Positions 4,101 through 36,399 of a stretch of DNA of 64,000 bases are shown piece by piece; position 1 is the stretch's first letter, and each line of letters starts with the position of its first letter. Under the pieces are notes generated by a model that saw only the letters and a program-made list of their open reading frames with translations, was not told the DNA's origin and did no database searches. This DNA comes from Bispira polyomma (taxonomy: Eukaryota): assembly GCA_965649765.1 (NCBI GenBank), contig OZ287752.1, positions 17,360,001-17,424,000 of the forward strand. Reading direction: 5' to 3'. Position numbers and translations under genes: made by a program.

Positions 4101-7100
4101 GGACACCAGTATAGGGTCCTCATATAATGATGTATATACGTGTAATGATAATGGACTAATGCAGTATGCTCCAGGGGAGACGTACACAGACATTAGGTCA
4201 CACTTATGTGAGGTAATTGTTCAAATTACCAATTGGTCACATTGCTTCTTTAACAACATTGAAACTTTACCTATCATTTATCTAAGGGCTGTCAAAGGTA
4301 ACTTTGCAGGTTTCTAACTTGCAGGGAGATCTTAGCCCCCATGAGGTTTTTGAAAATTATCAGAAAGACATGGCCTCAGTTAGGAGCCATGGATGTACTT
4401 ATACAGAATTTATAACTAATATTATTGACATGATCATAGACAATGATGACAATGATCAGTCAGGGTTGGCTGCTCAACCTGTGACTGTAGCTGAGCCAGT
4501 AAGCATGCAACAGGATAATGTCTTGTCGTCGTTCACCGACTTCTTCGGGAAAACCTCAGATTTTCAGTCAGAAGTTCTTAAGGGCCATAAGGACATTACA
4601 GACATAAACTTACCTGATAAGAATAGGGGTTTTCTCATGCTATCCAACTCAAATTTTATTTTTACAGGCCCGGATAGGGCTTCCATGTTGATCTCTTCTG
4701 TTGAACAAATGGCTTACATAGCCAGTATTATTAGGGACACAGATTGCCCCAACTATAAAGGAGCAAGAATTCCTTTAATTTCAGGCCTTAAGATTGAACA
4801 ATGGGAAATAATCTTAGCAGATCACCCAGATAAGTTACTTATACAATACTTAAAATTCGGCTTCCCTCTTTCCTTGAATGACCCGACTTCTCTCAAGGTT
4901 AAGGAGGCTAACAATCATTACTCAGCTCTACAGTTTAAGGCTGAAGTTAGTCACTATCTACAGAAAGAAAAAGTCAATGGCACCATGTTGGGGCCAGTAG
5001 AGAATATACATAGCGACTTGTACCACTGTTCGCCCCTCCTCACTTGTCCTAAAGACTTAAATAAACGTAGAGTTATATTGAACCTATCACACCCACAGGG
5101 TCAATCACTTAATGATAATGTTGATAAACTTCTATTTGACGGTATCCAATTTGCTTTAAAATTCCCTACCATAGACGATATAGTACAACAAATACGTATT
5201 ACCAGAAATCCGAGAATCTTTAAGTTGGATGTTTCTAGGGCGTTTAGAAATTTGCGCGTTGATCCGGTGGACGCTATGAAACTAGGGATATGTTTTGAAG
5301 GCGGTAAATACGTGGATCCAGCGGTCGCGTTCGGCTGGGTACACGGATCCGTGGCCTTTCGGCGTTGCTCAGACATAATTGCCTATGCCATGGAAAAAAT
5401 TGGTCATAAGGTATTTTGTTATATCGATGATTACGTAGGCATATTGGAGGAAAATACAGCAGACAAAGCTTTTCAAGATCTTCATGATTTAGTCGTGTCA
5501 CTGGGACTTCCCGTTAATGCTGACAAATTATCAGCTCCTGACACAAAAATTACTTGTCTAGGTATCGACATTGACTTAATTGCAGGTACAATTAGTATAA
5601 CCAAAGAAAAGATCGAGGAGACTCACCAGTTATGTACTGACATTTTTAAAAATCACTGGATATCTCGCAGCAAATTCCAATCATTGTTAGGTAAACTACT
5701 ATATATACACAAATGTGTTAAACCTGCTAGGGTTTTCATTAATAGACTTCTTATGGCATTCCGTGGTAAACCTCAGGCAAAACGATTCAAAGTTACTCGA
5801 GCTATGAAGGCAGACATTGCCTGGTTTATTACTTTTCTTAAGCGCTATAACGGAATAACTTACATAAATTCGAAAATTGATGTTGATATTAACACCGTAT
5901 ATATAGATGCCTGCTTAACAGGTATAGGGGGAATTTACAACCAACAGGTCTACGCTTCTCCAATATACAATGTATACAATAGGCCTCTCACCATTGTACA
6001 CATTGAAATGTTAAACATATTGATAGCTCTCAAAGTCTGGGGTGAACAGTGGAGACACAGCACTATTAACATACTTTGTGACAACATGGCAGTGGTACTA
6101 GTCGTTGGTACTAATAAGACTAAGGATGAGTTCTTAGCCCTACGTCTTAGGAATATATGGTTACTTACAGCAGAATTTGACATCACATTACAAATAGATC
6201 ACGTTAAGGGCAAGAATAATTGCATAGCAGATGCACTCTCTAGAATTTATTCTGAACACTTTTCAGTTAAGGAACAGAATGTCTTATCAAGAGAAGATTT
6301 TGTGTGGCAACAAATCCCACTTAATTTCTTTAATTTTGACATTTCTGTTTAATTTCAGGCTCCACTCAGGTTACACAGGAGCTTGTGGGCTCAGCATGGG
6401 AAAGAATTAACACAGCACTACGACCAAAGACCACAATTCTCCTTTTAAACCCTTACCAAAAGGAATCTTTGAAATTCAACACTTACTACTTATATCTAAA
6501 GCATGCAATTCCTTACAGGATCCAATACTGTACAGAGCCATCTTTCTGCTATCATTCTTTGGTTTCCTTAGAATTTCTAACATTGCTCCCCACTCCAGGG
6601 CACAATTTGATCACACCCGACACCTATTAAGGAAAGATATCATTTTTGGCCCTCCAGGAGCTCATGTCATCATCAAATGGTCCAAAAACTTACAAGCTAG
6701 GGGTGAGGTTCATATCATTCAACTTCCTCTACTAGAAAATAAAGAATTGTGTCCAGTGAGAGCTCTGGAAAACTTACTAACTTCAAGGGTTCTTCCAGAC
6801 ACTCATCCTTTATTTGAGTCTGGCACACTGCCACATGAACCCATAGTAGACACACACATTCGCTCTGCTCTAGCCTCTGTACTAGCATACGCTGGCATTC
6901 CACAAAAATCACACACTTTTCATACTTTCAGGCGCTCTGGAGCAACATTTGCTTTTAACAATAATGTCTCATTACAAAATATAATGTCCCATGGACTGTG
7001 GAGGTCGTCTGCTGTCTGGACTTACCTCCAGAAGACTTCAAAGGCAGCTTCCACAGTCCCCCTCACTTTTGCTTCCTCTATCCCTAAATTCCTTTAGTTT

Positions 7101-9415
7101 GGCTTGGGTATTTTAAAAATTATTTTATAACTTTTTAAAAGTATGTTTTAACCCACTATGATTTTGTAAATAGACTCTAACATGTATAGGAAATAAACTC
7201 TCTCAAACATTTAACTTATTACATCACTTCCAACCACATATAGTACCTCACTTCATATCCTGACCTTGACTTACCTTTACTTGGGCAAACTGTAGACATC
7301 AAGACCCTAAAGGGGTCTGATACTTCAGTTGACCCCACACACTATATTACAAACTACCTTAACTAAACCCCTGGCGAATAGATCGACTTATTTTGCTCTG
7401 TCCATCCAACCATACACACAGCCAGTTCTTTGTCTTAAGCAACAATACATTTTCCCTCCAAAAGCTCTCCATTAAGCTTCTTGATACTGAAGCATACACA
7501 CGTTAATATGCCCACCTCCTCCCCTTACCACAGCTAAATTAAGTTATTTGCCTTAGAGGCCGAGTGGGGGCTTGTTACAGTCTTCTTCAACCCACCCCTG
7601 AGCATCACGCCTAAGGAGCTAGGATTGAAAATGGGCTCTGAGAGGCTGGATCTACCCTTGCCAGGCGATGGATGCCATTGGCCTCCTGGGCCATGTTATA
7701 CAAATTGCAACCTTCTCATTCGCCCCTCGGGGTTGAGCAATCAATTTTGGCTAGTCTGTGATTTAGCATATAATTGCTGTTAAATTGACTATCAGTGACA
7801 CATATGGGTCCACTGCATTGATATAATTGATGATATACTGTATTAAGATACAGTGGTGGTTTACTGAATATTTGTTAAAAAGGTGTCTGCCTAGTTACGT
7901 TATTGTTGTATAGATAGATACTGTGATAATATTGTAACGGTAGGGGTATTTTAAAAATTATTTTATAACTTTTTAAAAGTATGTTTTAACCCACTATGAT
8001 TTTGTAAATAGACTCTAACATGTATAGGAAATAAACTCTCTCAAACATTTAACTTATTACATCACTTCCAACCACATATAGTACCTCACTTCATATCCTG
8101 ACCTTGACTTACCTTTACTTGGGCAAACTGAGAATGTGTTCTTCATAACCAGTCAATACGCTATATATTTAATGGTATAGATGTGCACCAATTGTTACTA
8201 AAGCAGGTTGAGTTGTTATATATAGGTAAATAAACCAGTATAAATGTATAAATTTGCCCTGTGGGTAACACACTCACATGCAGATAAATGCACTGAGTGT
8301 ACATTTGAATGTAATGATTTACAATTACTCATACCTCTATAGTTATGGTGTATATATTTTTTAAGGTCTACCATCGGTGAGAGGGATATTAGAAGCAAAA
8401 ATATATGAAGATATTGTGGTTTTGTATTGGGAACACATAGATGGAAACTACACAAGAGCTGATTTGCTGAAATGTTACAATGGACAGCAAAATTGCATTT
8501 CAATATACAATATTATTGATACAAGTGTTACAAGATACGCAGTGGATACTGTATATGATGGAGAGGAGTACTATCTTGTGATATATCAGGATACTGATGA
8601 AGTAACAGCTGAACAATTTACTATGACTCACAAAAGTAAGTTTGCCTATGAAAAGAAAAACAGGTCTGCCATATAGGATATAAAAACGTGTTCAATACGA
8701 AAGTACACAATTAATATTAAAATATTTAAAAAATAATTATATATTTGACACTTAACATATTAGAATTAATTGGATTTTAAGGTTTCTTTTTCAGCCCCTT
8801 GTGGAGATATTGTTCACGAGAAAGACACTGGACTAATAGCAGGCATAGCCATTACGTCTGCCATGGTTGGTTTACTTACAGCTTCACAAGTTATACTGAT
8901 TGTATTGTTTAGAAGGAGACAGAACCTAAATGGCGACAATACTAAATGGCCTTCAGTAAGTGAAAATAAGCATGAAATGATATTTAGCAGACTTGTGTCA
9001 CTGACAATGGAATATGTTCAATATGCAATGTGTGTTCTCTCTTTCACCAAGTTTTTTTTCAGTTGCATGCATGTTTGGTAAAATGTTTTTATTTAATTGT
9101 GACATGTACATATTTTTAGAATGAAGGTCCAACAACATATGAAAATGTATCACCTACACATGAAATCGGCAACTATGAGATGACAAAACCAGAAGAACCA
9201 ACACCACCTGCTATGTATACCGATTTGAAGGTATGGTCCCTGCATAATTGATACAACTGAATTAATCACAGCAAATATTATAACTGACTTAGCAAGGATT
9301 TTTTGCATTATTTCTAACTTAACTATTTATATCTATTCTCTTTTTGTTCAGATATTTGCTCTAAATAAGTACTATATTATTATTCCAGCAAGTGACATAT
9401 GAAACCATTAACTGA
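806..9415 (+). CDS. Gene A (5' part lies outside the window): IgSF/FN3 type I membrane receptor with ITSM/ITIM tail; exons 806-1114, 1779-2075, 8366-8635, 8795-8955, 9120-9230, 9389-9415
   Basis: Six exons with the same lengths (309/297/270/161/111/27 nt) and phases as the last six exons of gene B, and clear protein similarity. The first donor is GC (ccag|gctagt). Confidence 0.85.
1352..1420. repeat. poly-C/poly-A low-complexity tract
   Basis: Direct inspection. Confidence 0.9.
1779..2075 (+). CDS. Gene A exon: fibronectin type III domain
   Basis: VPEAPHSL...SVTLSWIPG...SLLPDTEYFFRVKSQN FN3 signature; tttcag| and |gtacc sites. Confidence 0.9.
2113..2524 (+). repeat. Two ~150-bp direct repeats (2113-2263, 2374-2524) with a degenerate tRNA-like core (SINE head or tRNA pseudogene)
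   Basis: A-box-like tagctcaactg and B-box-like ctcgaatccc/ttcgaatacc in both copies. Confidence 0.6.
3025..3849 (+). pseudogene. DIRS gag-like ORF with in-frame stop (TGG>TAG at 3496-3498)
   Basis: KSGRF...LRWANEDW...FDELSLPQW and a C-terminal Cys/His finger CKLFNTGKC...HICWHC; the homolog at 44786-46021 has W at the stop position. Confidence 0.85.
4304..6352 (+). CDS. DIRS reverse transcriptase / RNase H
   Basis: Uninterrupted 682-aa ORF; KLDVSRAFR, FGW, YIDD; RNase H motifs DAC..E..DN..ADALSR. Confidence 0.95.
   Translation: MQVSNLQGDLSPHEVFENYQKDMASVRSHGCTYTEFITNIIDMIIDNDDNDQSGLAAQPVTVAEPVSMQQDNVLSSFTDFFGKTSDFQSEVLKGHKDITDINLPDKNRGFLMLSNSNFIFTGPDRASMLISSVEQMAYIASIIRDTDCPNYKGARIPLISGLKIEQWEIILADHPDKLLIQYLKFGFPLSLNDPTSLKVKEANNHYSALQFKAEVSHYLQKEKVNGTMLGPVENIHSDLYHCSPLLTCPKDLNKRRVILNLSHPQGQSLNDNVDKLLFDGIQFALKFPTIDDIVQQIRITRNPRIFKLDVSRAFRNLRVDPVDAMKLGICFEGGKYVDPAVAFGWVHGSVAFRRCSDIIAYAMEKIGHKVFCYIDDYVGILEENTADKAFQDLHDLVVSLGLPVNADKLSAPDTKITCLGIDIDLIAGTISITKEKIEETHQLCTDIFKNHWISRSKFQSLLGKLLYIHKCVKPARVFINRLLMAFRGKPQAKRFKVTRAMKADIAWFITFLKRYNGITYINSKIDVDINTVYIDACLTGIGGIYNQQVYASPIYNVYNRPLTIVHIEMLNILIALKVWGEQWRHSTINILCDNMAVVLVVGTNKTKDEFLALRLRNIWLLTAEFDITLQIDHVKGKNNCIADALSRIYSEHFSVKEQNVLSREDFVWQQIPLNFFNFDISV
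6359..7097 (+). pseudogene. DIRS tyrosine recombinase with an internal deletion and frameshift near 6435
   Basis: FFGFLRISN, HTFRR and HGLWRSSAVWTY catalytic motifs; the N-terminal segment present in the 41269-41664 copy is missing. Confidence 0.9.
8366..8635 (+). CDS. Gene A exon: second FN3-like or juxtamembrane beta domain
   Basis: IVVLYW...YDGEEYYLVIY; paralog of 25838-26107; canonical splice sites. Confidence 0.85.
8795..8955 (+). CDS. Gene A exon: transmembrane helix
   Basis: GLIAGIAITSAMVGLLTASQVILIVLF followed by RRR. Confidence 0.9.
9120..9230 (+). CDS. Gene A cytoplasmic exon with three tyrosine motifs
   Basis: NEGPTTYENVSPTHEIGNYEMTKPEEPTPPAMYTDLK; tttttag| and |gtatgg; conserved in gene B. 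Confidence 0.85.
9389..9415 (+). CDS. Gene A terminal coding exon (QVTYETIN*, ITIM)
   Basis: ttccag| acceptor; 27 nt identical to gene B 26778-26804. Confidence 0.75.
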   Translation, partial: QVTYETIN

Positions 9416-11107
9416 AGAATTGCTGCATCAAACCTACAGATTGCATAAAGCACAACAGACACATATAATGCAAAGGTAGCAACTGTGTATATAAGCAGAC
9501 ATCAGAGACAGTTATGTGATAAAATAATGCATGAAAAAAAATGTGGATTGTGAAGACATATGAAAAAAATCATTTCAATACAATTTTCAATATAATACAA
9601 AACTTTATTTTAAAACATCCATTTGGGCAAGACATTGACAATTGTTAAAACACATACGTGAGAAGTACTGAAACATATTCCTTGTTAGTTAACACCTTTT
9701 TACAACAATATTTAGAATACTTAAGGTAACCTTAACTTGAGCTTGATGCTAAGTGTGTAATAACGTAAACTTAGGTAGCTATATTAAACCTGACCTAGAG
9801 GTTGACTAATGTCAACGCTCCTTTGATTGGAGGTTAGCTGACCCTAAGCTAAGTACCCAAAGGAATGTTAAGGGGGTAAAGTACTTTAGGATTCCTTACG
9901 CTGGATTTAACCTAACTTGCTGTCCACCTTAATTATTTAGCATTACACATATTCAAATACTGGATTTGTTATCCCTGTGTTGGGTGGCTTTGAAATGTTT
10001 GTGTAATAAAAGTGCCACAGTTTGATTTACATGTCAAATAAAATATTTAAAAACTACTTTTTAAAAAAATTTTAGGGGTGGAGGGTGGGACGAGACAAGC
10101 ACACAGCAAGCTAACTCCCAGAATGCATACATGTGGGCTATTATATAAGGCAGAAAACTCGCAGAAATTTCTCAGACAATTCACTTTAGCTAGTTTTCTC
10201 CACCCACTCGCCAGACAGTTCCATAATTAATACATTAACTCTGTTTAATATCGTGTGTTATTCCAGAACTTTTTGAATATTCTTATCTCATATGTACTGA
10301 CCTATATTGCTATGCATATATATTCACATGGATAACAATATACAAAGATATACTTTAATTTTCGGTAACGTAGAATCTACATACATTATTGTTTAATCTA
10401 AATATAAAATAATTTGATATTAACATCCCCTGATCATAGCTCCCAACCGTTCCGATCTAAGGATCGGTAACAACTCGGGGGTTTAATTGGGAGGATCAGG
10501 AGTTGCTCCGGCATTATGTTTAGCTATCGGGGGCGATCGGGCCACTTGCTCAGCTTGAAAACCTCTGCGATTGGATGATAAATGCCCGATAACTAGGGAC
10601 CAAGTGGGAGCAATTGGGAGCCTGCAATGACTTATCGTTAGGCACTAATGACCTATCTTTACAATCGTCCCGTCCAGAACCAAATCGGGAGCAATTTCAA
10701 AGAAAACCATTCTAAGTGATCACTCCATCCCTAATAATAGGTCTGGAGGCTACCGACTGATCGGTCCTGTCATGTGCTAAGAATAAGTCCTTGAAGTGTA
10801 AAGATAACTCGGGCGTGGCTTCGAATAGCTCGGGAACAAGCGGATGAGTGTAAGGATAAGTCTTGAACACGTAAGACAACTCAGGGCTGACAATGGGAAC
10901 GTATTTTTATTTGCTCACAAGTCAAATGGGGGGTCGAGAAACTTATAAAAGGATGCCGTGACAGTAATCTTCATCTCATTTAATTTTTAGCAGCGAAGAG
11001 TACACATCAGCAAATGGCAATTTTCATTGGATATATATTTAGGTCTTTTTTTCTGTGAGTTAGAAGTTTAAAGTTTTTATATTGTTAAGAGGGGAAGAAA
11101 GAGGAAG

Positions 11108-16520: not shown

Positions 16521-17221
16521 TTGTATTTAATTATTTATGAAGCAGTATAAATGATGCACTACGTGCTCTAATTCTTTGCTTAGTGATTTCAAAATAAGGA
16601 TACAATCACTACAATTGTGTGTTTTACTATATATTTATTATTTTCAATTTTTGAGTGTATAATAAAAGTAAAACAACCTTGTGCTGCAAATAACTTTAGA
16701 TTATCAATATCAATTAACTGTGTCTTCTCTCCTGATAACATTAAAAAATATACATTCCTCATGTAATTTTCCTCCAGTTGTGTATCCTCCAGGTGGTGTG
16801 AAATATAAAAATGTATGTTTTAAGTGCTACAATAATTATGAACTGTAGAATTTATTCAATATGAAAGTCTATTTCACCTCCTTTATATTTGTTTTTGAAT
16901 CACATTTGAGTGACAACTTTGTACTCTTCTGTTGACATAGTATTGATTTCTGAGAGGTTTCAATGTTAGTGTTTATTTCCAAATGTTTGTGGCATGTTTA
17001 AACCAGAGTAAACAAACAGGGTTTTTTAAGAAGAAAAAGTAAAATAGCACCCTTGTTACATATGTTATCACCCAAAGATACAAACAATTGCTAACCTTGT
17101 ATACTTGGTATTATTGTACATTACCCAGGTATGTCTTGTATTAAGTATATATATATATATATATTTTTTTTTATTCATACATAAAATTAATAGGGTAACA
17201 TATATATGAATACTCTTTTAG

Positions 17222-17602
17222 CTGTATTTGATGTGGGTAATACAGAAGTGACCCAAGTGTCCTACACCACATCCTACCCAGCTGACAGTGGTTACTACAT
17301 ACTGGATGGAGAACAGCTGACACTGGACTGTGTGTTTACAGGAACACTGACCTCACTGGTGTGGTGGACACTAAAGGGAAGTAATGAGCAAATCATACTA
17401 GTTTCTCCTAACAGAGAGGATAACATACCTGACAGTGAGTACAAATCCAGGATAGAAGACTCTACACTGACATCAACTTCTCATCAGTTGGTGATTAGAG
17501 TCAACAAACAACAGGATGAGGAGCAGGAGTTCAGGTGTCGTGTTGTCAAGGAGGATAATATATTTGGATCTGAGAAAGACAGACAACTTGGAGACATTTT
17601 AG
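17222..17602 (+). CDS. Gene B exon: N-terminal V-like Ig domain
   Basis: GEQLTLDC..LVWW..SRI..HQLVI..DEEQEFRC. Confidence 0.9.
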
Positions 17603-20600
17603 GTGAGTTGTGCTATTATGTATTTAGATGTATGTACCTTTTTAATGAGTGAGTCTAGCCAGGACAGGCTCACTCATTGATGTTATACTGCAGATTTGGT
17701 GTTGTGACAGCATTTTTTTGAAATTGGCCCAAAAATTTAACTTCATACTTACTAGGTATCGTTTTTAATTCTTGGGATAATGCAATCAATTTGTTTTCTA
17801 AATAAAGAAACTATAATAATGGTTTTAAAAACAATGACCTGGGTTGACATGAGTTTGACTTATATAGTCACATACTTCACTTTCTAGCCTTGAAAATGGC
17901 TCTATTTATAAAAAGGTCCTATATATGCGAAAAATCAATAAAAATCTGTCTCAGGATCTCTGATACAACTGGAGTGGTACACACTAAAGGGAAGTAATAA
18001 ACTACTCTTAGTTGTGCGTCCTAACACAGAGGATCAAATATTTGACACTGAGTCCAGAATAGAAGACTCTACACTGACATCAACATCTAACCAGTTGGTG
18101 ATTACAGTCAACAAACAACAGGATGAGGAGCAGGAGTTCAGGTGTCGTGTTGTCACTGAGAGGAATATCTTTGGATCAAATAAAGAAAAACAACTGGGCA
18201 AAATTTTAGGTCAGTTATGAAAGGGTTCGATTTTACAACAGGTTGGATATTTTTTAATACACACTTTAACAAATTATAACTACTCTTAGTTGATTAATAT
18301 AGAAATTAAAAAAAAAATACGCCTGTTTAATGTTCATTTTCAACAATTGATTGGGTGGGTTTAGTTTTAATTCACTCCCAGAGATAATTTAAAATGCACA
18401 TAAAACACTCGTTTAAGTATTTTATTTCTATTCTAAAATGATAAACCATTAGCTTTGAATACAATGACACAATGATTACATAAAATGTGTGACTATTATG
18501 AAGACGGTTCCATGTTGTGGCTGTTTCATTGTATAAACATATCACAGCTGAAGTTGAAAAACAAAAGCATTGAAAAATACAAAAATAATGCTGATTATTT
18601 ATTAAAACTACTTACTTTACTAGAGGTAAAACATCATAAAAATCAGTTGAGAAATAGCTTTAATATTTAACAGTTGATATATTTAAGTTTAAATATGGAA
18701 TAGTGTGTCAAGGGAGATTGACGGAACAGCATAAACAACCTATTATGCATTATACTGGGTGTTTTATGCAAATTTAAAACATTGTGCAAAGATGTGTGTT
18801 TTTCTATTGCTCAGCCTACCATTTTAGAATGAGCTTTAAATATAAATTCGTTATCTGCTTCAGTCATTGTTATCAGTACATTTATGTATTTAAATATTAT
18901 AAGAAACAAAAATAGTTTGGGGACATTTATTTTCCAGTGCCATCATCCTCTGTGACACTAGAAGGTCTAGATGTTGTAATAGAAGGTGTACAACAGACCA
19001 TAGAGTGTGAGGTGAACTCAGTTTACAGAGGTCAGGAGGTGACAGAGTTTGGTGTAAAGGTAGGAGAGTCTACACTGACATCTGGTACAAAGACACAGAC
19101 TACAGGGTCAGTGAGTGGGACTTATACTGTAAAGTATAGACAGACTTCAACATTTACCTACAGTGAACACCAGGGTCAACAGGTACAGTGTGAGGTCAAA
19201 TGGATGGAAGGGACAAGTGTAGAGACAGTGAAAACATCTACAGTTGAGACACTTTATATTTATGGTATGTAAATAAAATGTAAAATGATTATTATAATAG
19301 TATTTATACAAAACATTCAGTATATAATTTGCATAATTAGTAGTTGTAAACTAAAGTGTGTGAATAAGGTGTCTCAATAAGGTGTTTGTATCCCAGTTTC
19401 ACATGCCTTTTTTATATTTTGTACATATTATTGTTATGTTTGCTCTTAGTTCGAGCCACAGATGTAACTTTAGATATATCTGACAGTCCAGTACTAGAAG
19501 ACACTCCACTGACCTTCACATGTACCACCTCTAGTATCCCCTTACCCAGACTAAGACTGTACAGACAGAGGGAGGGTCAGTCTGCCACTGTGGTAAAGTC
19601 TGTCACTGATTTGACACTGAGCTGGACTAACAGTATGGAGTCAGCAGACAACAAAGCCGAGTTTTACTGTAGAGTGGATGACAATAAGGACATTGCAGGC
19701 TGGGACTTTCATGTACAGTCAGAGAAACAGGAGATTACTGTGTGGTGTAGGCAATATTTTATTTTGTTTTAGTTCTTAAGCATTTCTTTCTGGGGATAAT
19801 ATACAGACATGTATTTGATTTTTGATTATTGTGCAATAATTCAATACTTTGTTCCTATATTGGAAGTTATTGGGCTTTCAGATTTTCAATTTTAAGTAAT
19901 ATGTGCAAATTTCAGGGAAATATTACTTTTTCAGAATTTTCACAAAATTAAACTGTAGTTCAACCTTGTGCACTGAAAATACTTTATTATTGCTTCAACT
20001 TCAGAGACGCTTTGTTTTGTTTTTCAAAATCAATTTTCTAGTTTTTTGACATTTGCAAATATGTTTTAAGTTTATGAGGTAAAGTTAAACAATCTTAGAA
20101 CTAAACTTATTTATTTTATTTTAGTTTAGTTCTGAGGCATTTATCAATATTTGATACTGCTGACATTATAAGTTGGTGTTGGTTGTTTTTCTTTTAGTTA
20201 AACCTTCCTTGAAATTTAATGCCAACACAAGCCCCAACCCCACAGAAGGAGATATCCGACAGATAGAGTGTATCTCTACATCAGCAAACCCAGAACCTGT
20301 ACTGACTCTGTACAGAGGAGATGTGGAGGTGAAGTCAGTGACAGGGAGAGAACTCAGTTATGGTGTGGAGATAACAAGAGAGATCAATGGTGTGATATAT
20401 AAGTGTACAGCTACTACATCTGATACCCGGAGTTATGACTATAAAGTGTTGTCTGGTGGCAAATATTACACTGTACTATGTGAGTTCCATACATACTTGT
20501 TAATTTGGTTGTCATTGGATTTGTTTTTGCTCTTTCTGTTTCAGAAATAAATTGAGGAGCAATAATTTTAAGAAAATATTCCATTTTGAAAGCCTAATTT

Positions 20601-23600
20601 ATTTCAAAATATCGAAGACAAAATTCACTTCTATTTCAACTGTGTAACTTTTTAAGTCCATTAATAAACTATGTTTAAAGTATCCTGACTTGGATGTTTT
20701 GAACCATCCCGAAAAGTTAAAATGTTCATGCAGAAAGAATATATAACATTTTTTGTGAATATTTAGTAACTATATATGACAAACAAAAATATCTGATATT
20801 TAAATAGTACTTGTCGTATTGTATATGTTGTTGTTTTATACTATATGTACAAACATCTTCTCATGTGTGAATTTTTTTTGCAAAATTTAAAAATTATGCG
20901 AATATTCATTTTAGTTGAATCCATGGAATTAATAATAATCGGTGCTCCCACAGAGTTGTTAGAAGAGGACAATGATATAACAGTGATGTGTAGAACAGAT
21001 GAAGGTAATCCAACACCTACAGTGAGGTGGTATAAAGATGGTCAGACTGTACCTGTAGATACTGCCCTGAAGTCTGTGACTGATAAGGAGATTGATGGTC
21101 AGTACATGGCTAAATATGTGGAGAGTACACTGAAGATACAGACTAGACGTACATTGAATGGAAGGGAATATAGTTGTATGGTGGAAGGTACCAGCCTGGA
21201 AAGGAAATTTACACTTGGAGTAAAGTGTAAGTTACATTTGTTCTATGTTGCTGTTTTATATGAAAATTGTAGCATATATAAAAATATATGAATCAATTTC
21301 ATTGCATTTAAAAATGACGTAAGGTGACAGTGCTTACTTTATAAAAACTCAATTGCTGTGCATATATATTTACAAAAATATAGGTTTTCAAATCTGTATT
21401 TCTTTTGATTCAGGTCTGTGGTAAATATCTACCACTTACACATGCAGTTTTATCACCAAATGCAGAATATATTTTGATATCATGCACATAGTCAAATGTG
21501 TATTGATCAATGCAAATACTAATTCTATATACAAAATTGAAATGAAATTGTGAGACGAGTTAACTGCTTAGAAGAGTTTTTGCATCTTTTATTGTGAATC
21601 AGAAATATTGCTATATAGCATGTGATTCTGATAAACTGGGAATCACACATTTTGAAGGGATCTAAGCATTTTAACACTACCAATTTGATATATTATGTCA
21701 TTTATGTCAAATATGACTGGCTGCTTATGTCTATCATATTGGTGTTGCAGCCCAAAAGGTTTGATAAATTATCATGAAATTAACATAAAATGGGCACAAT
21801 AGTGGATCTACAACTAATAAGGTTATATTCTTCACCATATTAATAATTAGGTTTTATATTTTTCGTTAAAATTATTATTACTGATCCAACCCCTTGATGA
21901 AACGATTCATCTAAACAATCTTAATTTCATTAACTTTTTAAACAAATTGACAGGTTTTCACTTTGTTTAACATTGACAGGAATGATGAAGCTTAAAAAGA
22001 TGTATACATCGTGTCAAAAAAGTTCTTCCCATAATATTTAATAAGGAAATATCCATTAAATCTTGACCTTACAAGATCCTGGTATTGATTAAAAGTGTTA
22101 TATATGGGGCAAATTCCCGACCGCTATAATAAACAGTGTACTTCTTTAGTACACATACACTGGCGCCTGTTGTTTGAATTGAGTGTAACTGAAACTGAAT
22201 TCTTACAAATGTCTTTATTATTTTCATTTAGGTCAGGTTCATCTCAAGCCATTATTTTCCTGCCACTAAACGTTTTCTTGCTGGTTAAAATTAAAGCTCA
22301 GCAGCTCATGTTTTACTTAGTGGCTGTAATTCAGACTGTGCTCTAGTAATTGCACAAACATAATGGTTTTAACAAATAGTAATATGTTAAGTTACATTGT
22401 TTCACAACACACTTATATATAAAACCTCAAACTGCAAAATAGCGACCCAAACAAGGACACAAGTTTGCATGGATATTTATAATATAAGTACTAGCATTAT
22501 AATAGTAAGTACTGTGTATGTTTATCATTAAGTTTATCAAATTTTTCATGTGCTGTTCTTTTATTTGTTAACCATTGGATGAATCTTTTTCATATGTCAT
22601 GTTATATACCTTTGTATTTCATGGACATGATATATACCACTTGCAATTATGTACCTAGTTATTTTCCCAATTTTTCATTGGTTGTTATACTAAGAGATGT
22701 CTGCTCTAATTACTTGTGACGGCAATAAAACAGTTTTGAAGCTAAAATATTTATGTTTGACAGAACTAGGCTGTCATTGATATGAAGACTGTGTGTAGTT
22801 TTACGATGCTAATACTCATCATTGATTGTTATGTCTAAATAGTTTGCATAGGGGTAAATACCAGCAATCGACATATGATCAGATTTCTTACATGCTTGTT
22901 TATTTTGACTCACAAATACACAGTCCAGCAGTGACGTTTTTTTTTTTGTAATTTACTAACGGTATGTAAAAAAACTACCAACTAGCGATCAGATGTTAAT
23001 GTTTTTGCTGGCATGTTATTATGTACAAAACATCTGATCATCATAGAATATAGAAACTGGTCAGTCATTGTCTGATAGTAATTAAAAGTAAATATCAGAA
23101 TTAGCATATCTGCATTATAAATACTTGATTTTAATTTATCTAATCAACAATGTATATATAAAAAAACGTCTGTATCAAACATTTAATATATTTTAACTTT
23201 TTAATGAATCGCTATAATTCAAACTACTTCAGGAAAATAATTTACGTGTAACCAGTTTATACAAACTTAAAATAAAATTGTAAGAATACCAAAGTACCAT
23301 GACTGTTGTATCGTGTCTGAACTAAGCTTATAATATAAAACAATTTATCCTCATAGTTATAATATGTTTCTTGCTTTTTCTATAAATACTGGATACCATA
23401 TGTTTAAACATGATGATTTATCAACTAGAACTGTGCGACTAATATTTTATTTACACAAACTCCATGTTTTATTACAATGGGAAATATAAGATATATATAT
23501 CTTTATAAATTGACTTTTGTTATTTCAGTTTCACATGATGTTGCAGTCATCCAGAGTCCCTCAGATTCTGTGTCAGAAGGTTCAAGTCTGTCCTTGACCT

Positions 23601-26600
23601 GTGAAGCTACAGGAGGTAACCCACCTGAGGTGTTGTCTTATAGCTGGAGTTTTGTACCTCGGTATGAAGAGAGCAGTGATCCGAGTAGTGACACAGACAT
23701 AGAGTTACAGTTTGACAGTGTAGAGTACAGACAGGCTGGGGTGTACAGATGTGAGGTAACTAATGAGGGAGGTGTGAACAATGACAGCGTAGAACTGTTT
23801 GTGCAATGTGAGTAATATAATCATGTAAATATAGTACAATATGACATTGGAGAGTACACACAGGTTTAAATATATATTGGATGTTTTGTATAATATTCAT
23901 TAAATTACAACAATAATGCACATAAGCAAAAAATACAAATTATTGCCAATGTAACAGTTGCGACAATGGTTATATCGCAAAGGCATTAACTTCTTTATGT
24001 TTATAACATACAATATATGATAGAACTCGTGTGCCATATTAGTAATATTTCTGTAGTGTGTCTTCTACTTGAGAAACTTTATGTATTGTTTGTTAAAATT
24101 GTTCCTGTCAGTTTCCCCAGTAGATGTGAGTTCTTCCTTACAGAAGACTGCATATGCAGAAGTAAACATAAAGACTTTACTAAGCTGTACAGTGAGGGCT
24201 TATCCAGCAGTCACTGCTGATCATGTGGATATCATATTTGAAGGTTCTAAAATACCTGCTAATACTATACATGTGGAAGCAGTGGAGGATAAAGTGGATG
24301 AGACTCTTATAGAACTGACATTTGACCCTGTAACATCTGAGGACTTTGGTCTGTATCACGTTGTACTGAATAATGGTGTAGGGGACGAAATTATGGTTGA
24401 ACTAAGCTTGAGCGAACGAGGTGAGTAATCATTTTAAAGTTACAGAAAAAGTTTTTGATTAGGATCAATTATTAGTATAAATGATACATTTTATGTACAT
24501 ATTTGAGAAAGATACTACATATTAGAACACTACTGCTATCGATGATGGAAAAAAATTTCAACAACACTTATAAAAAGGCTTTGTTGTCTAGTAATTTAGT
24601 ATATATTCAGTTATTATACTTTACAGTGTAATTAAACAATTAACCATTGTTAATATATCAAATGTTCTTTGCTTTGTGAGGCTTTATTAGTTGGAGTTAT
24701 AACCTAAAAACTAAGAATATTGCACAAACTAAATCTGGGTAAACACTAGTTAGAGGAGGTCACTTTCAGTTAAGATGTCCATAATGACAAGTACAGAAAC
24801 ATTGTAGGGTATTATTTATTCGATACTTTACTTTGGAGATTAGCACCGACTTGGCATACAATATCTGGGTTATATCTCAAGTAGCATGAGATGTTTGTTG
24901 TAACAATTATCTCTAAAATGGTATAGCTCAAAATAAGGCAGAGCATTAATATTATCAATAATATTAGTTAGTTACTTCACATTTATTGATTAACTATTCA
25001 ATTACATATACATGTTTTTAGGTGTACCAGAAGCACCACATTCTTTGGTATTTGAGTCAGTAACTGCCATATCAGTAACCCTCTCTTGGATTTCTGGTCA
25101 GAGTCGTGGTGTAGAACAAACCTTTACAGTGTATTACAGACATCAAGGGGACACCAAAATACTATATCATGATGAAATCCGGACCATTGAAAATAAGAAA
25201 ATAAATGTATACAAAGTCTCAAGTTTATTACCTAATACTGAGTATTTCTTTAGAGTTAAAGCACAAAACCAATATGGAGAAAGTGAGCATCAACCTGAGA
25301 TATCAGTTACAACTTTAGGTACCTGCATTTGTTAAATTATACCACCATTATTACTTAATAAATACATATATTTGTCCAATGAGCTTTACAATTCATATGT
25401 ATTCTCCATGTTGTTTTTGTACAGTAATAATATACAATATTATGGTATATATGTACATGACATAGGCAGCAATTCGAACTTCTAAATACAAAAGTTTATA
25501 ATTATATATGCGGCATTGTGGGTAACACTTGTCCCTAGTAATGCACAGGTCCTAGTTTCAGTCCCAACTGCGTTCTTTAATGTATAGATAGGTACCACAT
25601 AAAATTGCGGTTCTCTGCCGTTTACTTCTGTCCTTAGTGGCAGATAAAAAACCTTGGGGATGTTGATGTTTTCATTCTCAAGTTTCTGTCTTCAGTTAGT
25701 AAAATGATGGTTGGCTGTAGTTGAGTAGATAATGACAGATAAATGAATTAACTATACATAGAAATCAAATACAAATTATCCCTCAAATATATCATTTACC
25801 ATATTTTTAGAGTTATATTTTCTAATATTTATGCTAGGATTACCATCAATGAAAGGGATATTGGAGGCACACCTATATAAAGAAATTGTGGTCTTGTACT
25901 GGGGACACATAGATGGGAATTACACAAGAGCTGCTTTATTGAAGTGTAACAATGGACGACAAAATTGCTTTTTAGTTTACAACATTACTGATGTCATTGT
26001 TACAATTTTTACAGTCTACACTGTATATGATGGAGAAGAGTACTATCTTGTAATATATCAGGATAATGATGAAGTAATAGCCCAAAAGTTTACCATGACA
26101 GACAAAGGTAAATTTAACTGTAAAAAACATGTTTGTCATACAGAAATATGGATACCATAACTTCTTCACTATAAACTGCATAATTTGTATAAATGTTCGA
26201 AGTTTAATTTTTCTCTTTGTAGCACCTTCTGCAGATATCATTAAAGAAAAAGACACTGGACTGATAGCGGCACTTGTAGTTACATCTACAATGGTTGGTG
26301 TACTTGCAGTTGCCCTAATTATACAGATTATTTGCCACAAAATGAGACTGAGGCATAATGATGACAATAACAATGGGTTTTCTGTAAGTAATAACAAGCA
26401 CAACACTATAATTAACAGACTCATATCATTCACAATCAGTAAGTGTTAATTGGTTACAGTTACTTCTGGTAACATGTTTATATTTTGTTGTGATATATTT
26501 TACAGAATCAAGGTCCAACAACATATGAAAATGTACCATCTACACATAAAATCAGCAACTATGAAATGACAAAACCAGAAGAACAAACACCAACGGCTGA

Positions 26601-26804
26601 ATATACAGATTTGAAGGTATGACCATCACATAATTGATACAAGAAAAATAATAACACCCAAATAGTATAACTGACAGAGAACAGATTTTTTTGAGTTGTT
26701 TAAACTTAATTATTTAAATGTTATTTTTTTTTCAGATATAAAATGTGTACTAAATGTGTACAATATTATTATTTCAGCAAGTGACATATGAAACCATTAA
26801 CTGA
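17222..26804 (+). CDS. Gene B: nephrin-like architecture IgSF receptor (7 Ig + FN3 + FN3-like + TM + ITSM/ITIM tail), ~1017 aa plus an unresolved leader; exons 17222-17602, 18938-19264, 19450-19746, 20198-20479, 20915-21226, 23529-23807, 24112-24420, 25022-25318, 25838-26107, 26223-26383, 26506-26616, 26778-26804
   Basis: All exons are open with canonical AG/GT; ectodomain exons are phase 1-1 with lengths divisible by 3; Ig C..W..C signatures. Confidence 0.9.
17955..18209 (+). pseudogene. 5'-truncated duplicate of the V exon (orphan half-V segment)
   Basis: Near-identical SRIEDSTLTSTS.QLVI.VNKQQDEEQEFRCRVV; lacks the first Cys strand; donor tttag|gtcagt retained. Confidence 0.85.
18938..19264 (+). 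CDS. Gene B Ig domain 2 exon
   Basis: IEGVQQTIEC...HQGQQVQC; canonical sites. Confidence 0.9.
19450..19746 (+). CDS. Gene B Ig domain 3 exon
   Basis: EDTPLTFTC..SIPLP..DNKAEFYC. Confidence 0.9.
20198..20479 (+). CDS. Gene B Ig domain 4 exon
   Basis: IECISTSANPEP..INGVIYKC. Confidence 0.9.
20915..21226 (+). CDS. Gene B Ig domain 5 exon (C2/CD80-like)
   Basis: VMCRTDEGNPTPTVRWY..LNGREYSC. Confidence 0.9.
23529..23807 (+). CDS. Gene B Ig domain 6 exon (I-set-like)
   Basis: EGSSLSLTCEATGGNP..YSW..QAGVYRCEVTN. Confidence 0.9.
24112..24420 (+). CDS. Gene B Ig domain 7 exon
   Basis: LLSCTVRAYP..EDFGLYHVVL; gtcag| and |gtgagt. Confidence 0.9.
25022..25318 (+). CDS. Gene B FN3 exon
   Basis: SVTLSW..LLPNTEYFFRVKAQN. 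Confidence 0.9.
25838..26107 (+). CDS. Gene B FN3-like or juxtamembrane domain exon
   Basis: Paralog of 8366-8635, same length. Confidence 0.85.
26223..26383 (+). CDS. Gene B transmembrane exon
   Basis: GLIAALVVTSTMVGVLAVALIIQIIC-HKMR. Confidence 0.9.
26506..26616 (+). CDS. Gene B cytoplasmic exon
   Basis: NQGPTTYENVPSTHKISNYEMTKPEEQTPTAEYTDLK. Confidence 0.85.
26778..26804 (+). CDS. Gene B terminal coding exon (QVTYETIN*)
   Basis: tttcag| acceptor; in frame with the preceding phase-0 donor. Confidence 0.75.
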   Translation, partial: QVTYETIN

Positions 26805-31402: not shown

Positions 31403-31457
31403 ATGGAAAGGATACTTGTTATAACAATAATGATGTGTGTTTTATGCCTGTGTGTGG
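31403..31457 (+). CDS. Gene C signal-peptide exon
   Basis: Hydrophobic 18-aa leader, phase-1 donor g|gtaagt. Confidence 0.85.
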
Positions 31458-31812
31458 GTAAGTACTCTTTTTATACTATGAATATTCTGTTAAGGCTAAA
31501 TATTGTTAGTGGAGAGGCTAAATGGTTAATGGTACATAACTTAATCAATGGTACTGTATTTTATGATTTCTATGTTAACATTTTGCTTCTTAACATAAAA
31601 TATGTAACTGCATTCACTTAATAAGCAACAAGAGTATAATATTCAATATACTGAATAAACCCGATATTTTTGGTCTTACTTATGTTTCTTGAAAAACTTT
31701 GCATTTAAAATTTTTGCAGAAAGAGACACACCTGCAACATCTATTGACCTAAATAATGATATCATACATAAACATTAGTTATAGAAATAAAGTAATCTGC
31801 ATTTTGTTTCAG

Positions 31813-32142
31813 CTACCACGTGTCCTAATTCAGGCAATGCATATGACAAAGAAGAGTTTGCAGAGGCTGGAGGTTCAGTAAGTTTACAGTGTGGCTCACT
31901 CGGTGAGGATACTATTGTAATCTGGTACTACAAAGGAATATCAGTCATTGTTGGCCACAACCTTGAGAGTGACACTGGACCTGTGTATCCTGATGAAGAC
32001 AACTACCCCAGGTCAAAGTACAGCTATAGTGAAGTGGATTACTCACTGACTATACACAATGTGGGATTGGAGGACCTGGATTGTTTTAAGTGTACAACAA
32101 ATCCATCTAACAGGCAAATTACCACTCTGGTTACACTTATAG
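31813..32142 (+). CDS. Gene C V-set Ig exon (open)
   Basis: GGSVSLQC..IVIWYY..YSLTIHNVGLEDLDCFKC. Confidence 0.85.
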
Positions 32143-32844
32143 GTATGTATGCAGCACCAAACTATGTAATGATTACAAAATTCAATAGATTTATTTATTA
32201 TGTGTGTTCTACAGAAATTAGGAGAGTAAAACATCTAGAAAATGTGTTTTGTCCACGTCTATGCTGTTGCTTTAGAGGTTATATTGCCTGTCGGGCAATA
32301 AGAAAATTAGTAATCATTCATATTTTACTATGGCTGGTAATTATGTGCTTTAAGGATACTGCTGTCCAACCAGGTTTCTCGTATATGAATATTATGAATC
32401 CAGTAGGAGTGCATAGTCGATATTTGGCCATGAATGGTTTTCAAGTTTGAGCCAAATAATATAATATCCATCCAAGACTTCAGATTAATTGTTCAGATGT
32501 GAATTGACACGAGTTGAGATCACAAAAACAAACTTTTTAACACATACAAGTGTAGGCATAAACAAAGAAAGCTTCCCTTAAATGCATCCACACCATTATC
32601 TGTATCAGGCTTGTAGGTAACTAATAGGTCAAAGTATTTTGCTAAAAATGTAAAATACAGTATAACAGATTGAGGGATTCATGGAAACAAAAATGTTAAA
32701 CTCCTCATGTGCAAAAGAATTTACCCTTTTGGGATCAAATTTATTAATTTAGTTGAACCAAAGTTGTTAAACAAGTAACATTAAAAAATCCCCACCACCT
32801 GGTGTGTAATGCACACAAATACAGCGTTCAAATAGATTGGTTCG

Positions 32845-32990
32845 CGTTTAACAGCTTAGGTTATATCATGAGGGCCAGATTCATTGGTGGAAGAAATCAG
32901 TGTTGGAGCACTGAAAACCACTAGTTTATGACAAATCCCTACCAGTGATAGTTAGGCAGGCAATTCTAACCACTAGGCCTCCACAACCCC
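32845..32990 (-). mobile_element. Degenerate tRNA-derived SINE
   Basis: Reverse complement of ggcctagtggttag head and a catgatataacc..gttaaac tail. Confidence 0.5.
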
Positions 32991-35900
32991 TATGTCTTGG
33001 ATATTTTGTACATGTTATTGCGTTGTTATACCTTTATTACAGCCAAAGCGGCTTGGTATGATGAATCCTCACATGTCTGGCACTATGACCTAGTGTGTAA
33101 TGCACTCATTGGATGTGTATAACTATTCAAACTTATACCATGCATTGTTAGGTCAATCCATCAAAGTTAATTGATTTTGCAATTTTTCTGTAAACCAAAG
33201 AAATATTCACTTAAATGTCTTAATTTTTTTTTCTTATTGTTGGTCATTTATTTTATGTTTAATGACACCACAGATACCAAGCTTCACAGTATTACCCACT
33301 TTTCAAGAGAACACAGATATTTCCGTCCAGTGTAAAGTGTCAACAGTAAAACCAGGGAAGGGAAGTATCCAGTTTACTGTCAGAGTAGTTCCAGACTTTA
33401 GTGTTGAGAGTTCAGACAGTGAGTTGTCAGAAGAAGAGGTAGACTCTAATACAGGAGCTGTGTCAGTGAGTTACACTACAGAGATCAGACTACAGAGAAA
33501 ACACAATGGGCAGGATACAGTGTGTGAACTAGAGTGGAGAGGAGAAACCTTTACTTCTAATACACAACAGGCTAATGTTGAATGTAAGTGGTAAATTAGT
33601 TATATTATGTAGCTAGGTTTTTAAATTAGTAAATATTACTAGTTAATTAAGGAGTGACCTTTGTTCAACAGTAATAGATGGTACTCTGACTTTATGATAC
33701 CATTGTTCTTCAGTGTTTAATTAAATAAATGCTATATCTCTTTCAGTCAAAGCCTATCAATTGGCTATAGATGGTGAACCAACAGACTTAGTAGAAAAGA
33801 ACACAGGTATAACAGTGGTGTGTAGAACAGATGAAGGTAATCCTACACCCACAGTGAGGTGGTACAGAGGTGACCAGACTGTACCTGTAGATACTGACTT
33901 GGAGGTTGTAACTAATATGGAGACTGATGGTTCACTGTACAATGGTAAAGTGAGTGTAAGTACACTTAGTCTACAGGTTGATAGCACTCTAAATGAAAAA
34001 AGTGTATAGATGTAATGTAGAAGATACTAGTTTAAAGGAATAATTTGAACTGGAAGTGGCATGTAAGTTATTATAATTAATTTTAAGTGAATTCAACAGG
34101 TAAATCTAGATGTTTGTGAAAGAAAGATTTGTAACTGTCCCAAATTAATAGTAGGAGAGTGATTAGTTACTATTAAATCACATAAAGATATGAAGCACTA
34201 TATGCTACCGAGGGTATGAAAATGTTAAGACTTGACATTACTGTTTAGGTTCATCAGAGATTGGGGAAGAAGGTCCATTAACATCTTCAATATAGAAATA
34301 TGTTATAACATACATCCTGTTGTTTTATTTTTCATTTTTTTTATCCTTTATGATATCAACAGGATAAGCAAGGTTATCAAAAATAAATAATGTCAGATAG
34401 AACATTTTGTCCTGACTAATAAACAATGCTAAATGAATATATGTTCATTCACTTTGTATTATTTCAAAACTATGTCATCTATATGTTGTTGTTTTTTTTT
34501 GCAGTCGGTTAAGTATTTGAAAAATATAGTATCTGGATGAATTGAAAAAGTGTTTTTACTCAAATAAAATGTGTCAAAACATGATGTAGAAGTTTTTTTA
34601 ACTAACTGAAACTAATTTAATTAAGAAATTTCAATGAAAATAGATATTATTATTATTGCAAAAAATTATCAATGGAAGTTACAATAGTAACCAAGCATAT
34701 TTTTGTTTTCATCTGCCACTTTGGTTTAATGGGTATCACTACACCTCTTCGTCATCAGGTATTTTCACCTACTTTAACTTCAACAACTTCTCTAACACAA
34801 TATGAATGGTATGAGATTGTTATAGATGCAAATAGACTACAATAGACGAATATCATAACATAAAATACACAATGTAGCTACAGAATTATGGAATACTTTT
34901 ATTACCACCATTTACTGACCATCACCTTCTTAGGCATATTAAGGAGGATTGAGAATATATTTATAACTTTTCTCACTATCTCTTTTCAGCGTCACAGTGT
35001 GAATGGTACTTTAATATTGAATATTTAATATTTTTGATTTAAATATTACTGCTCTAGGTAACGGTAAGCTAATACTGTTTTCAGATATTTGTAAGGATGT
35101 TTTAATATACAACATCCTGGATTAACTTCATTCTAACGTTTGATCCTGGAGAAATTACTTTGACCTGAAGTCATTGTCCTCACTGGATCTCAGGAAGTAC
35201 ATGTTACTTTTCAAATTAATACTGTTGGGATATTCTGCCTGATACAATTTTGGCAGATATTTTAAAAATCAAAGAAATACATGCAGAATTCATTGATGTA
35301 ACTACGAATCTACAAGAAGTGTGTCAGCAAAACAAACTATCAGTGTAAATGATTTGCAGTTTGCTCTGATGCAACATATATATTTCTGAGCATAAAATCA
35401 AACTGTTACTATATCTCAGAGGTTGAATATTGTTCAAAAAAGTTCTGATTAAATTATGTTTGTACCAATAGTTAAACAAACACATAAAATGTTCACCAAT
35501 AAACTAAGCTCTGTGTGAAAGAGGTTACTTGGACCTATTCTACTTTACTTTTTTGAAAATATACTTCATTTATCTATTACTTATATTCTTCTAAACAGAA
35601 AGATATATTGCATATTTCATTTTTGTATAATAGGGAAACATAAGTGAGGTGTGCCAGCATTATGTCACAACAGAAAGGCGTTTCTCTTAGGTTTGTTCAC
35701 AATATGACATTCCTCTGTAGATTTGAAATTGTGTGACGTCACGATACAAGAATCGTTGTAGCTCTGTTTTAAACACTGTGGTACATAATATTAAGGTTTG
35801 AAAAAATGCATATAAAATGGTTAAAACCATTTTAAGACTGCCATAGTAAGCATATAGGCTAAACAAAACATTCATCAATGTATTATGAATCTCTGCCGGC

Positions 35901-36399
35901 AGCGAATTTATGTGTTTACATTACTAAAGCCTTAAGTAAAACTTTTTAAAATTTGCAATAATTTGTCATGTTTATGTGTCAAACTAGCTCATATTCATGA
36001 CTTTTTCATTCTCCTTTGTCAGTGTTAAGGTCATGTTATATTAGTCTATTTAAATAATCCTGAACCAACTTTATAATGGCCAATTGTGCATAGTGAGTTA
36101 ACATGTCAAGGGTAATTTCAAAAGTACATCATGTTATAAAGTTGTTTACTATGTCGCAAGTTTCAGCTCGTAGTATCACCATGACCCAGCCTCCCTCTGG
36201 TCCAGTCTCTGAGAACACAGAAGTGACCTACACCTGTGTGACTGATGAGGCTCAACCTACTGCTGATGTGGTGGGGACTGTAGGAGGAAACAGTGATAGT
36301 TCTACTAGTGACACTACAGAGGTGGGGATGTATAACACAGACCAAAGGACAAGTGTGTTAGAGCTGAGGGTGGACACAACAATGAATGACAAGGAACTG

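What the first reader, a model, noticed from the sequence alone, without database searches (positions are those of the whole stretch)
17222..18209. Orphan half-V exon next to the functional V exon, diverged mainly in loop and face residues
Seen: 17955-18209 duplicates the 3' two-thirds of the V exon. The core SRIEDSTLTSTS-QLVI-VNKQQDEEQEFRCRVV is nearly identical. The region around the C strand (TLTSLVWWTLKGSNEQIILVSPNREDNIPDSEYK vs SLIQLEWYTLKGSNKLLLVVRPNTEDQIFDTE) and the region after the second Cys (KEDNIFGSEKDR vs TERNIFGSNKEK) differ heavily at the amino-acid level. It has no stops, keeps its donor and has an in-frame phase-1 AG at 17953-4. Inference: diversifying selection on the ligand-binding surface. 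The segment could be a relic of a two-V or mutually exclusive V arrangement, a gene-conversion donor analogous to avian pseudo-V segments, or a cassette exon.
Basis: partly seen in the sequence, partly recalled or inferred. Interest (0 to 1): 0.75.

Follow-up and report, generated by a model that had tools for sequence, protein, structure and literature searches.

The report
Beheaded V exon fused to repeat
The extra half-exon is the back two-thirds of an immunoglobulin V exon joined directly to a cut-off high-copy repeat, likely the dead stump left when a deletion fused two neighbouring receptor genes, which is ordinary turnover in an immune-type gene cluster and likely not a diversification device.

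Summary
17955-18209 matches codons 41-126 of the V exon (82% nucleotide identity), has no stop and keeps frame. The interpretation mostly does not hold. Pairwise dN/dS is 0.69 (95% 0.35-1.5) and 1.04 in the most changed part, so diversifying selection is not shown. The 'acceptor' AG is the last two bases of a high-copy repeat (about 17640-17954, HINE-like 5' hairpin). Other copies of that repeat run on past 17954, and the join to the exon sits on a 3-nt CAG microhomology. The segment lacks strands A and B and the first cysteine, and has lost family-conserved residues (Tyr73-Lys74, His87). It differs from V as a sister gene's V would: framework kept, C/C'/G strands changed, dS 0.27 against 0.26-0.57 for five exon pairs of neighbouring genes. 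Best reading: a once-working V exon beheaded by a deletion, most simply one that fused two tandem paralogs and put gene A's V on gene B's stalk and ITIM tail. A local two-V relic is the main rival. A donor role is neither shown nor excluded; splicing was not testable.

The parts
17222..17602 (+). Complete V-type Ig exon (126 codons, Cys36, Trp47, Cys105), phase 1-1
   Evidence: model pLDDT 90.6 with strands A, B, C, C', D, E, F, G; best structural matches are V domains, Z 12-13
17603..17639 (+). 37 bp of intron after the V donor; unlike the intron after the half-V beyond 10 bp
   Evidence: (509 of 1000 shuffles score as well)
17640..17954 (+). 5' part of a high-copy repeat, HINE-like (hairpin 17644-17678 just after a T run), cut off at 17954; supplies the AG at 17953-4
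   Evidence: 61-76 contigs carry listed variants at 17668 and 17860, 22 (X2) and 19 (X3) contigs run on behind 17954 with a shared other sequence; hairpin; left edge approximate
17952..17954 (+). CAG microhomology shared by the repeat and the V exon (17339-17341) at the junction
17955..18209 (+). Half-V: codons 41-126 of a V exon (C strand to end), no stop, 6-nt gap removing Tyr73-Lys74, His87Asn, donor AG|GTCAGT
   Evidence: exact 282-nt contig over 18126-18407 in runs X1 and X2, two samples
18258..18292 (+). Short echo of the half-V C/C' region in the next intron (exact 15-mer 18278-18292 = 18000-18014)
   Evidence: 1 of 5000 shuffles
18938..21226 (+). Four further Ig exons (18938-19264, 19450-19746, 20198-20479, 20915-21226), open, phase 1-1; the last is a clear C2-set
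23529..26107 (+). Two I-type Ig exons (23529-23807, 24112-24420), an FN3 exon (25022-25318) and a further open exon (25838-26107, FN3-like by position only)
   Evidence: the last exon was not scanned against Pfam
26223..26804 (+). Transmembrane exon (26223-26383) and tail exons (26506-26616, 26778-26804) with TTYENV, AEYTDL and the ITIM-pattern VTYETI before the stop

Best explanation
The half-V is the 3' two-thirds of a V exon joined to a truncated repeat, and is likely the dead stump of a sister gene's V exon, left by one deletion that likely ran from a repeat in gene A's V-to-C intron to codon 40 of the V exon of the next tandem gene B. Shown: the junction, the 3-nt microhomology, the missing A and B strands and first cysteine, the paralog-like pattern and depth of divergence. 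Inferred: that the deleted stretch held the rest of gene A and the front of gene B, so that the present gene carries A's V on B's stalk and ITIM tail (a V swap); that the join was microhomology-mediated; that the stump is spliced out and has begun to decay.
For: Repeat ends exactly at the supposed acceptor, with 19-22 contigs per run continuing differently; CAG shared at the junction; no trace of the exon's first 120 nt in the spacer (255 of 1000 shuffles score as well). dS V/half-V 0.27 against 0.28, 0.35, 0.57, 0.26 and 0.48 for five exon pairs between neighbouring genes, and downstream introns align for only about 10 bp, as for I2 and I1 pairs. Core conservation matches family-conserved columns. 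The window holds three related genes head to tail. Relatives in the same runs fit either V's 3' end (6-7 contigs at 17592) or the half-V's 3' end (3 contigs at 18199-18202), so both types exist elsewhere. Of 28 family-conserved columns V keeps the family residue at 23 and the half-V at 18, with all five differences against the half-V (two of them come from the one gap).
Against: Neither parent gene was seen; no listed contig bridges 17954/17955 or shows an intact V identical to the half-V (only 24 of 7,399 pieces and 15 of 91 joints were shown). A short deletion in a gene that already had two V exons gives the same junction. Three bases of microhomology can be chance. Absence of stops is weak either way (16% of simulations with 45 neutral changes keep the frame open). 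The core has fewer synonymous changes than the flanks (dS 0.10 vs 0.39, p 0.10), which would also fit some conversion. No clean leader exon was found for this gene, so the hybrid may not be expressed.
Confidence: 0.45

Rival explanations
1. Relic of a two-V gene: the V exon duplicated inside this gene long ago, both copies worked for a time (in tandem or as alternatives), and a short deletion from the repeat later beheaded the second. Also a dead stump; it differs from the best reading only in what was deleted.
For: Same junction, same constrained divergence; small deletions are commoner than gene-sized ones (general knowledge).
Against: Needs an extra earlier event; its age would have to coincide with the whole-gene duplications; the one other V in the window (31813-32142) is single (scan); half-V-type 3' ends occur in other contigs.
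Confidence: 0.3
2. The stump is kept as, or acts as, a gene-conversion donor that feeds C/C'/G-face variants into the working V exon.
For: 82% identity and 613-bp spacing permit conversion; 50-nt perfect run and clustered differences; low core dS; Hydractinia Alr2 exons are reported to shuffle with adjacent pseudogenes (PMC8282982, passage).
Against: Core similarity is explained by constraint (nonsynonymous p 3e-5, synonymous p 0.10). The 3 of 4 listed variants on V that equal the half-V letter are carried by 5-6 contigs each, and 5 of 9 listed variants on the half-V equal the V letter: shared ancestral states, with no direction. One copy, not an array.
Confidence: 0.12
3. The half-V is a spliced cassette or mutually exclusive exon with a function (for example a decoy or retained isoform).
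For: Phase 1-1, 255 nt, open frame, AG and GT present; acceptor pyrimidine count 9 of 17 is only just below the 10-14 of 12 other acceptors.
Against: AG is repeat-derived and its tract is the most A-rich of the 13 compared; +3 C donor; the product lacks strands A, B and Cys36 and has an unpaired Cys105; GT donors near the matching point of V give a stop and lose Cys36, and the remaining in-frame joins need two cryptic sites.
Confidence: 0.06
4. A gene fragment carried or copied in by the rolling-circle repeat itself (capture or end bypass), or a mis-join of the assembly through the repeat.
For: HINE-type elements are associated with duplications and may capture host DNA (PMC4067079, passages); the repeat abuts the fragment; no listed contig bridges it.
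Against: Exact contigs run from the half-V into its own intron and on through the C exons, so the fragment sits where a V exon belongs; no element end follows it was identified; the window has no gaps.
Confidence: 0.07

Closest known systems
KIR hybrid (fusion) genes made by deletion in the human KIR cluster (PMC2816608, PMC7516082; passages read)
   Same: Head-to-tail Ig receptor paralogs, breakpoints in intronic repeats, ligand-binding front of one gene placed on the signalling end of another; KIR2D genes also carry a constitutively skipped dead Ig exon.
   Different: KIR hybrids described there break at homologous points, so no stump is left; here the inferred join is repeat-to-exon on 3 nt. 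Invertebrate-type gene, no sequence relationship tested.
Hydractinia Alr family (PMC9546547, PMC8282982; passages read)
   Same: Tandem family with pseudogenes, one domain per exon, divergent V-set domain first, I-set and FN3-like domains, ITIM tails, variation on strands C and C'.
   Different: Alr proteins have one to three Ig domains, this gene seven; positive selection was shown for Alr2 from many alleles and is not shown here; homology and an allorecognition role were not tested.
Chicken pseudo-V conversion donors (PMC11427246; passages read)
   Same: Non-productive V copy near a working V, 5'-truncated.
   Different: 25 or more donors upstream, about 10% mismatch, AID-driven somatic one-way conversion; here one copy, downstream, 18% mismatch, no directional tract seen.
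Dscam1 mutually exclusive half-domain exons (PMC3364881; passage read)
   Same: Duplicated exons coding half an Ig domain.
   Different: Dscam variants are interchangeable exons spliced to a shared other half; here the V exon is whole and has no donor at the matching point.
HINE / DINE-1 non-autonomous Helentrons (PMC4067079, PMC7492417; passages read)
   Same: High copy number, subterminal hairpin a few bases from the 5' end, T-rich insertion site.
   Different: The 3' end is missing in this copy, so the second subterminal repeat and 3' stem-loop could not be checked.

Membership tests
V-set immunoglobulin domain (full V exon) | B-strand Cys, C-strand Trp, F-strand Cys, with C' strand and V topology | tested here: met
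   Pfam gives only sub-threshold Ig hits
V-set immunoglobulin domain (half-V) | Strands A and B and the B-strand Cys | tested here: not met
   starts at residue 41; no homologue of the first 120 nt in the spacer
Avian-type pseudo-V donor | Array of many pseudo-V segments beside one working V | tested here: not met
   one copy in the 64-kb window scan; beyond the window not seen
Avian-type pseudo-V donor | One-way tracts from donor into expressed V | tested here: inconclusive
   only 13 variant rows in the two segments were shown, of 1,140 rows for the stretch; no direction evident
Avian-type pseudo-V donor | AID-dependent somatic conversion | not testable with these tools
   no genome held
Dscam-type mutually exclusive exon | Alternatives code the same part of the domain and splice to a shared remainder | tested here: not met
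Cassette exon | Frame-preserving symmetric phase | tested here: met
Cassette exon | Own acceptor with pyrimidine tract | tested here: inconclusive
   AG is repeat-derived; tract weakest of 13 but near the range
Cassette exon | Inclusion in transcripts | not testable with these tools
   only contigs of runs not on record as RNA could be laid
Deletion-born hybrid gene (KIR type) | Head-to-tail paralog array | tested here: met
Deletion-born hybrid gene (KIR type) | Breakpoint in an intronic repeat | tested here: met
   left breakpoint
Deletion-born hybrid gene (KIR type) | Both parent genes or the undeleted haplotype identified | not testable with these tools
   no genome; contig tables truncated
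HINE (non-autonomous Helentron) | High copy number and 5' subterminal hairpin after a T run | tested here: met
HINE (non-autonomous Helentron) | 3' subterminal repeat and stem-loop; autonomous partner | not testable with these tools
   copy is cut at 17954; only 30 letters of the continuation are known, with no match in the window
Hydractinia Alr family | Sequence homology to Alr domains and linkage to allorecognition | not tested
   resemblance of architecture only

The most novel reading that the evidence does not exclude
In this uncharacterised invertebrate family of tandem ITIM-bearing Ig receptors, repeat-anchored microhomology deletions repeatedly swap V domains between genes, and the stumps left in the intron go on to donate C/C'/G-face patches to the working V exon in the germline: a recognition repertoire diversified by V swap plus stump conversion.
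Probability: 0.1. Interest if true: 0.65.

Novelty: new member of a known kind. Interest (0 to 1): 0.25.

Why it matters
As a dead stump it is ordinary birth-and-death in a receptor cluster and matters little. Its value is as a readable scar: if the hybrid reading is right, it records a V-domain swap in an invertebrate ITIM-receptor array, the process known from KIR fusion genes. The family around it (seven Ig exons, FN3, ITIM tail; no named relative in the searches) is a fair candidate for a self/non-self receptor system and deserves more attention than the half-exon. It is also a caution: an in-frame AG before a stop-free fragment can come from a repeat.

Tried and rejected
No genome is held for the window. 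No RNA holder was listed among 3 runs; this says nothing on expression. Protein searches for full-length relatives found none (V, 151 candidates; I1 exon, 127 candidates); both are weak blanks. Metagenome scans gave no locus, so no family-wide codon alignment or site-wise dN/dS could be made. Earlier findings: nothing by place, sequence or words. Rfam on 17100-18950: one match at E 0.61, far under its gathering score. The half-V folded alone gave pLDDT 66, pTM 0.54, but without an alignment, so it cannot be compared with the V model and is not used. Depth is not used as copy number: exact contigs are about 21 deep in X1 and 10 in X3, runs of one sample. Holes in contig cover are not used. Literature searches for the exact combination found nothing or only a general review; PTC clusters of Biomphalaria (PMC10875847, passages) were considered as an analogue but not tested. 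Diversifying selection was rejected as unproven, not excluded: one pair of sequences has little power. ESM Atlas taxa (Mollusca, Cnidaria) were not used to name the organism.

Full report
Setting. The window is animal DNA with three related immunoglobulin-superfamily genes head to tail on the + strand, interrupted by retroelements. The central gene has one exon per domain: V (17222-17602), four further Ig exons, two I-type Ig exons, FN3, one more open exon, a transmembrane exon and two tail exons ending in VTYETI-stop, which fits the ITIM pattern quoted in PMC9546547. All ten exons checked from V to the transmembrane exon are open. I found no clean leader exon: the best-placed candidate (17062-17128) has the right phase but an in-frame stop (read; translation). 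So 'functional V exon' is plausible, not shown.

The observation. 17955-18209 matches codons 41-126 of V: 82.1% nucleotide identity over 84 codons, 23 amino-acid differences, one 6-nt gap, no stop, phase 1-1. An exact contig over 18126-18407 is present in runs of two samples. The V exon folds confidently (pLDDT 90.6, alignment of 26) and its best structural matches are V domains (Z 12-13). On that model the half-V starts at strand C. It lacks strands A and B and Cys36.

Selection. Nei-Gojobori dN/dS is 0.69 (bootstrap 0.35-1.5); for C to C'-D it is 1.04 (0.4-3.95), for D to F 0.27. Five exon pairs between neighbouring genes give 0.42, 0.38, 0.26, 0.35 and 0.67, so V is at the upper end but matched by the fourth C exon. 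Nothing exceeds 1 with support. Differences are clustered, and fall on columns that vary among 18 homologues (p 0.023, which kept one of the six near-identical P0001-P0006 and 17 other single-domain hits, leaving out 11 long hits). The core lacks nonsynonymous change (2/73 vs 30/124, p 3e-5) more clearly than synonymous change (2/20 vs 11/35, p 0.10). Inference: the two sequences diverged while both were constrained V exons. Two contigs (table 5c) have a V-like front, their own 37-letter stretch over C-C', and a half-V-like continuation, which shows that this region varies among relatives in the same organism.

The junction. Laying contigs of three runs at 80% likeness shows that 17635-17954 is a high-copy repeat: summed depth 18,000-260,000 in the two bins against 10-90 for single exact contigs, and 61-76 contigs at each listed variant. 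In X2 22 contigs and in X3 19 contigs match up to 17954 and then continue with a shared different sequence (agreement 0.83-0.86; 18 of 1,575 loose-end rows were shown, none for X1 at this place). The AG at 17953-4 is therefore the repeat's. The last three repeat bases, CAG, equal V 17339-17341. The repeat begins with a 13-bp hairpin (17644-17678) after a T run, as described for HINE elements (PMC4067079, PMC7492417; passages); its 3' end is missing, so the label is 'HINE-like'. The first 120 nt of a V exon are not detectable in the spacer. The simplest reading is one deletion from inside the repeat to codon 40 of a V exon, sealed on microhomology (inferred).

What was deleted. dS between V and half-V (0.27) sits at the low end of exon pairs between whole neighbouring genes (0.26-0.57), and the introns after the two donors are alike for only about 10 bp, as for some of those pairs. 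Relatives in the runs split between V-type and half-V-type 3' ends (6-7 and 3 contigs), and variants number up to 20 contigs on the C exons, so the family has many members or alleles. This favours the half-V being another gene's V exon, with the deletion removing the tail of gene A and the head of gene B and leaving A's V on B's stalk. That is the KIR hybrid-gene process (PMC2816608, PMC7516082; passages), except that an off-register join leaves a stump. Against this: neither parent was seen, and a short deletion in a two-V gene gives the same picture. I put 0.45 on the hybrid and 0.30 on the two-V relic; both make the segment a dead stump.

Decay. Of 28 family-conserved columns V keeps the family residue at 23 and the half-V at 18. 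The clearest losses are the gap at Tyr73-Lys74 (Tyr in 13 of 18) and His87Asn (His in 15 of 17). Ile57Leu and Ser61Arg are weaker. In the other direction the half-V has the better-supported residue at 8 of 26 differing columns, V at 17. An open frame is weak evidence of use: it survives 45 neutral changes in 16% of simulations and 10 changes in 62%.

Splicing rivals. Skipping the half-V keeps frame. Including it would insert 85 residues lacking a third of the fold, with an unpaired cysteine (inference). Its acceptor tract is the most A-rich and least pyrimidine-rich of 13 compared, though close to the range, and its donor is the only one of 12 with C at +3. A Dscam-style half-domain swap (PMC3364881, passage) needs a donor in V near codon 40; the three near-matching joins there give a stop and lose Cys36, and the ten open joins found further on need cryptic sites at both ends. 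Low-level noisy inclusion is not excluded.

Donor rival. Chicken pseudo-V donors are an upstream array used one way by AID-driven conversion (PMC11427246, passages). Here there is one downstream copy. Of the 13 listed variants in the two segments, 3 of 4 on V equal the half-V letter and 5 of 9 on the half-V equal the V letter; 1,100 further rows for the stretch were hidden. This looks like shared ancestry, without direction. Germline exchange with neighbouring pseudo-copies is reported for Hydractinia Alr2 (PMC8282982, passage), so occasional conversion remains possible; 0.12.

Comparison and novelty. The gene works most like an Alr- or KIR-type inhibitory receptor by architecture (inference); membership of either family was not shown. 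Its V has only unnamed relatives (29 hits, best 55-60% identity). Searches for a description of such a family returned nothing or a general review; the library omits most subscription papers, and I read no supplements. Verdict: a real feature, best explained as a beheaded V exon; a new instance of a known kind of event; interest 0.25.

Noticed in passing
window 18258-18292: Exact 15-nt copy of half-V 18000-18014, 278 bp downstream, with an 8-nt match at similar spacing before it; 1 of 5000 shuffles. Possibly a templated insertion or a third relic; it matches the half-V, not V.
   Followed up: partly
window 17062-17128: Best-placed leader candidate has phase 1 and a good donor but an in-frame TAA; a hydrophobic stretch lies in the next frame. 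The central gene may lack an intact leader or have it further away.
   Followed up: partly
window 26506-26804: Tail carries TTYENV, AEYTDL and VTYETI: inhibitory-receptor-type tyrosine motifs.
   Followed up: partly
window 31403-37556: Third gene: clean leader and a very distant V (17% identity), but stops in its C4-like exon (34006) and two in its I1 exon; I1 is 88% identical to the central gene's. Likely a pseudogene; close stalk with distant V also hints at domain shuffling.
   Followed up: partly
window 806-9473: First gene: GC at the I2 donor, and an element with reverse-transcriptase-like and tyrosine-recombinase-like frames (about 2560-8130, read by eye, DIRS-type label recalled) between its FN3 exons.
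   Followed up: no
window 18370-18810: A second repeat in the intron after the half-V (summed depth 600-28,000; 37-43 contigs diverge behind 18451).
   Followed up: no
window 17434: The V exon has an internal consensus donor (ACA|GTGAGT) that the half-V lacks.
   Followed up: partly
runs X1 and X3: Exact contigs are about 21 deep in X1 and 10 in X3 although both are one sample and related contigs are slightly deeper in X3; unexplained.
   Followed up: no
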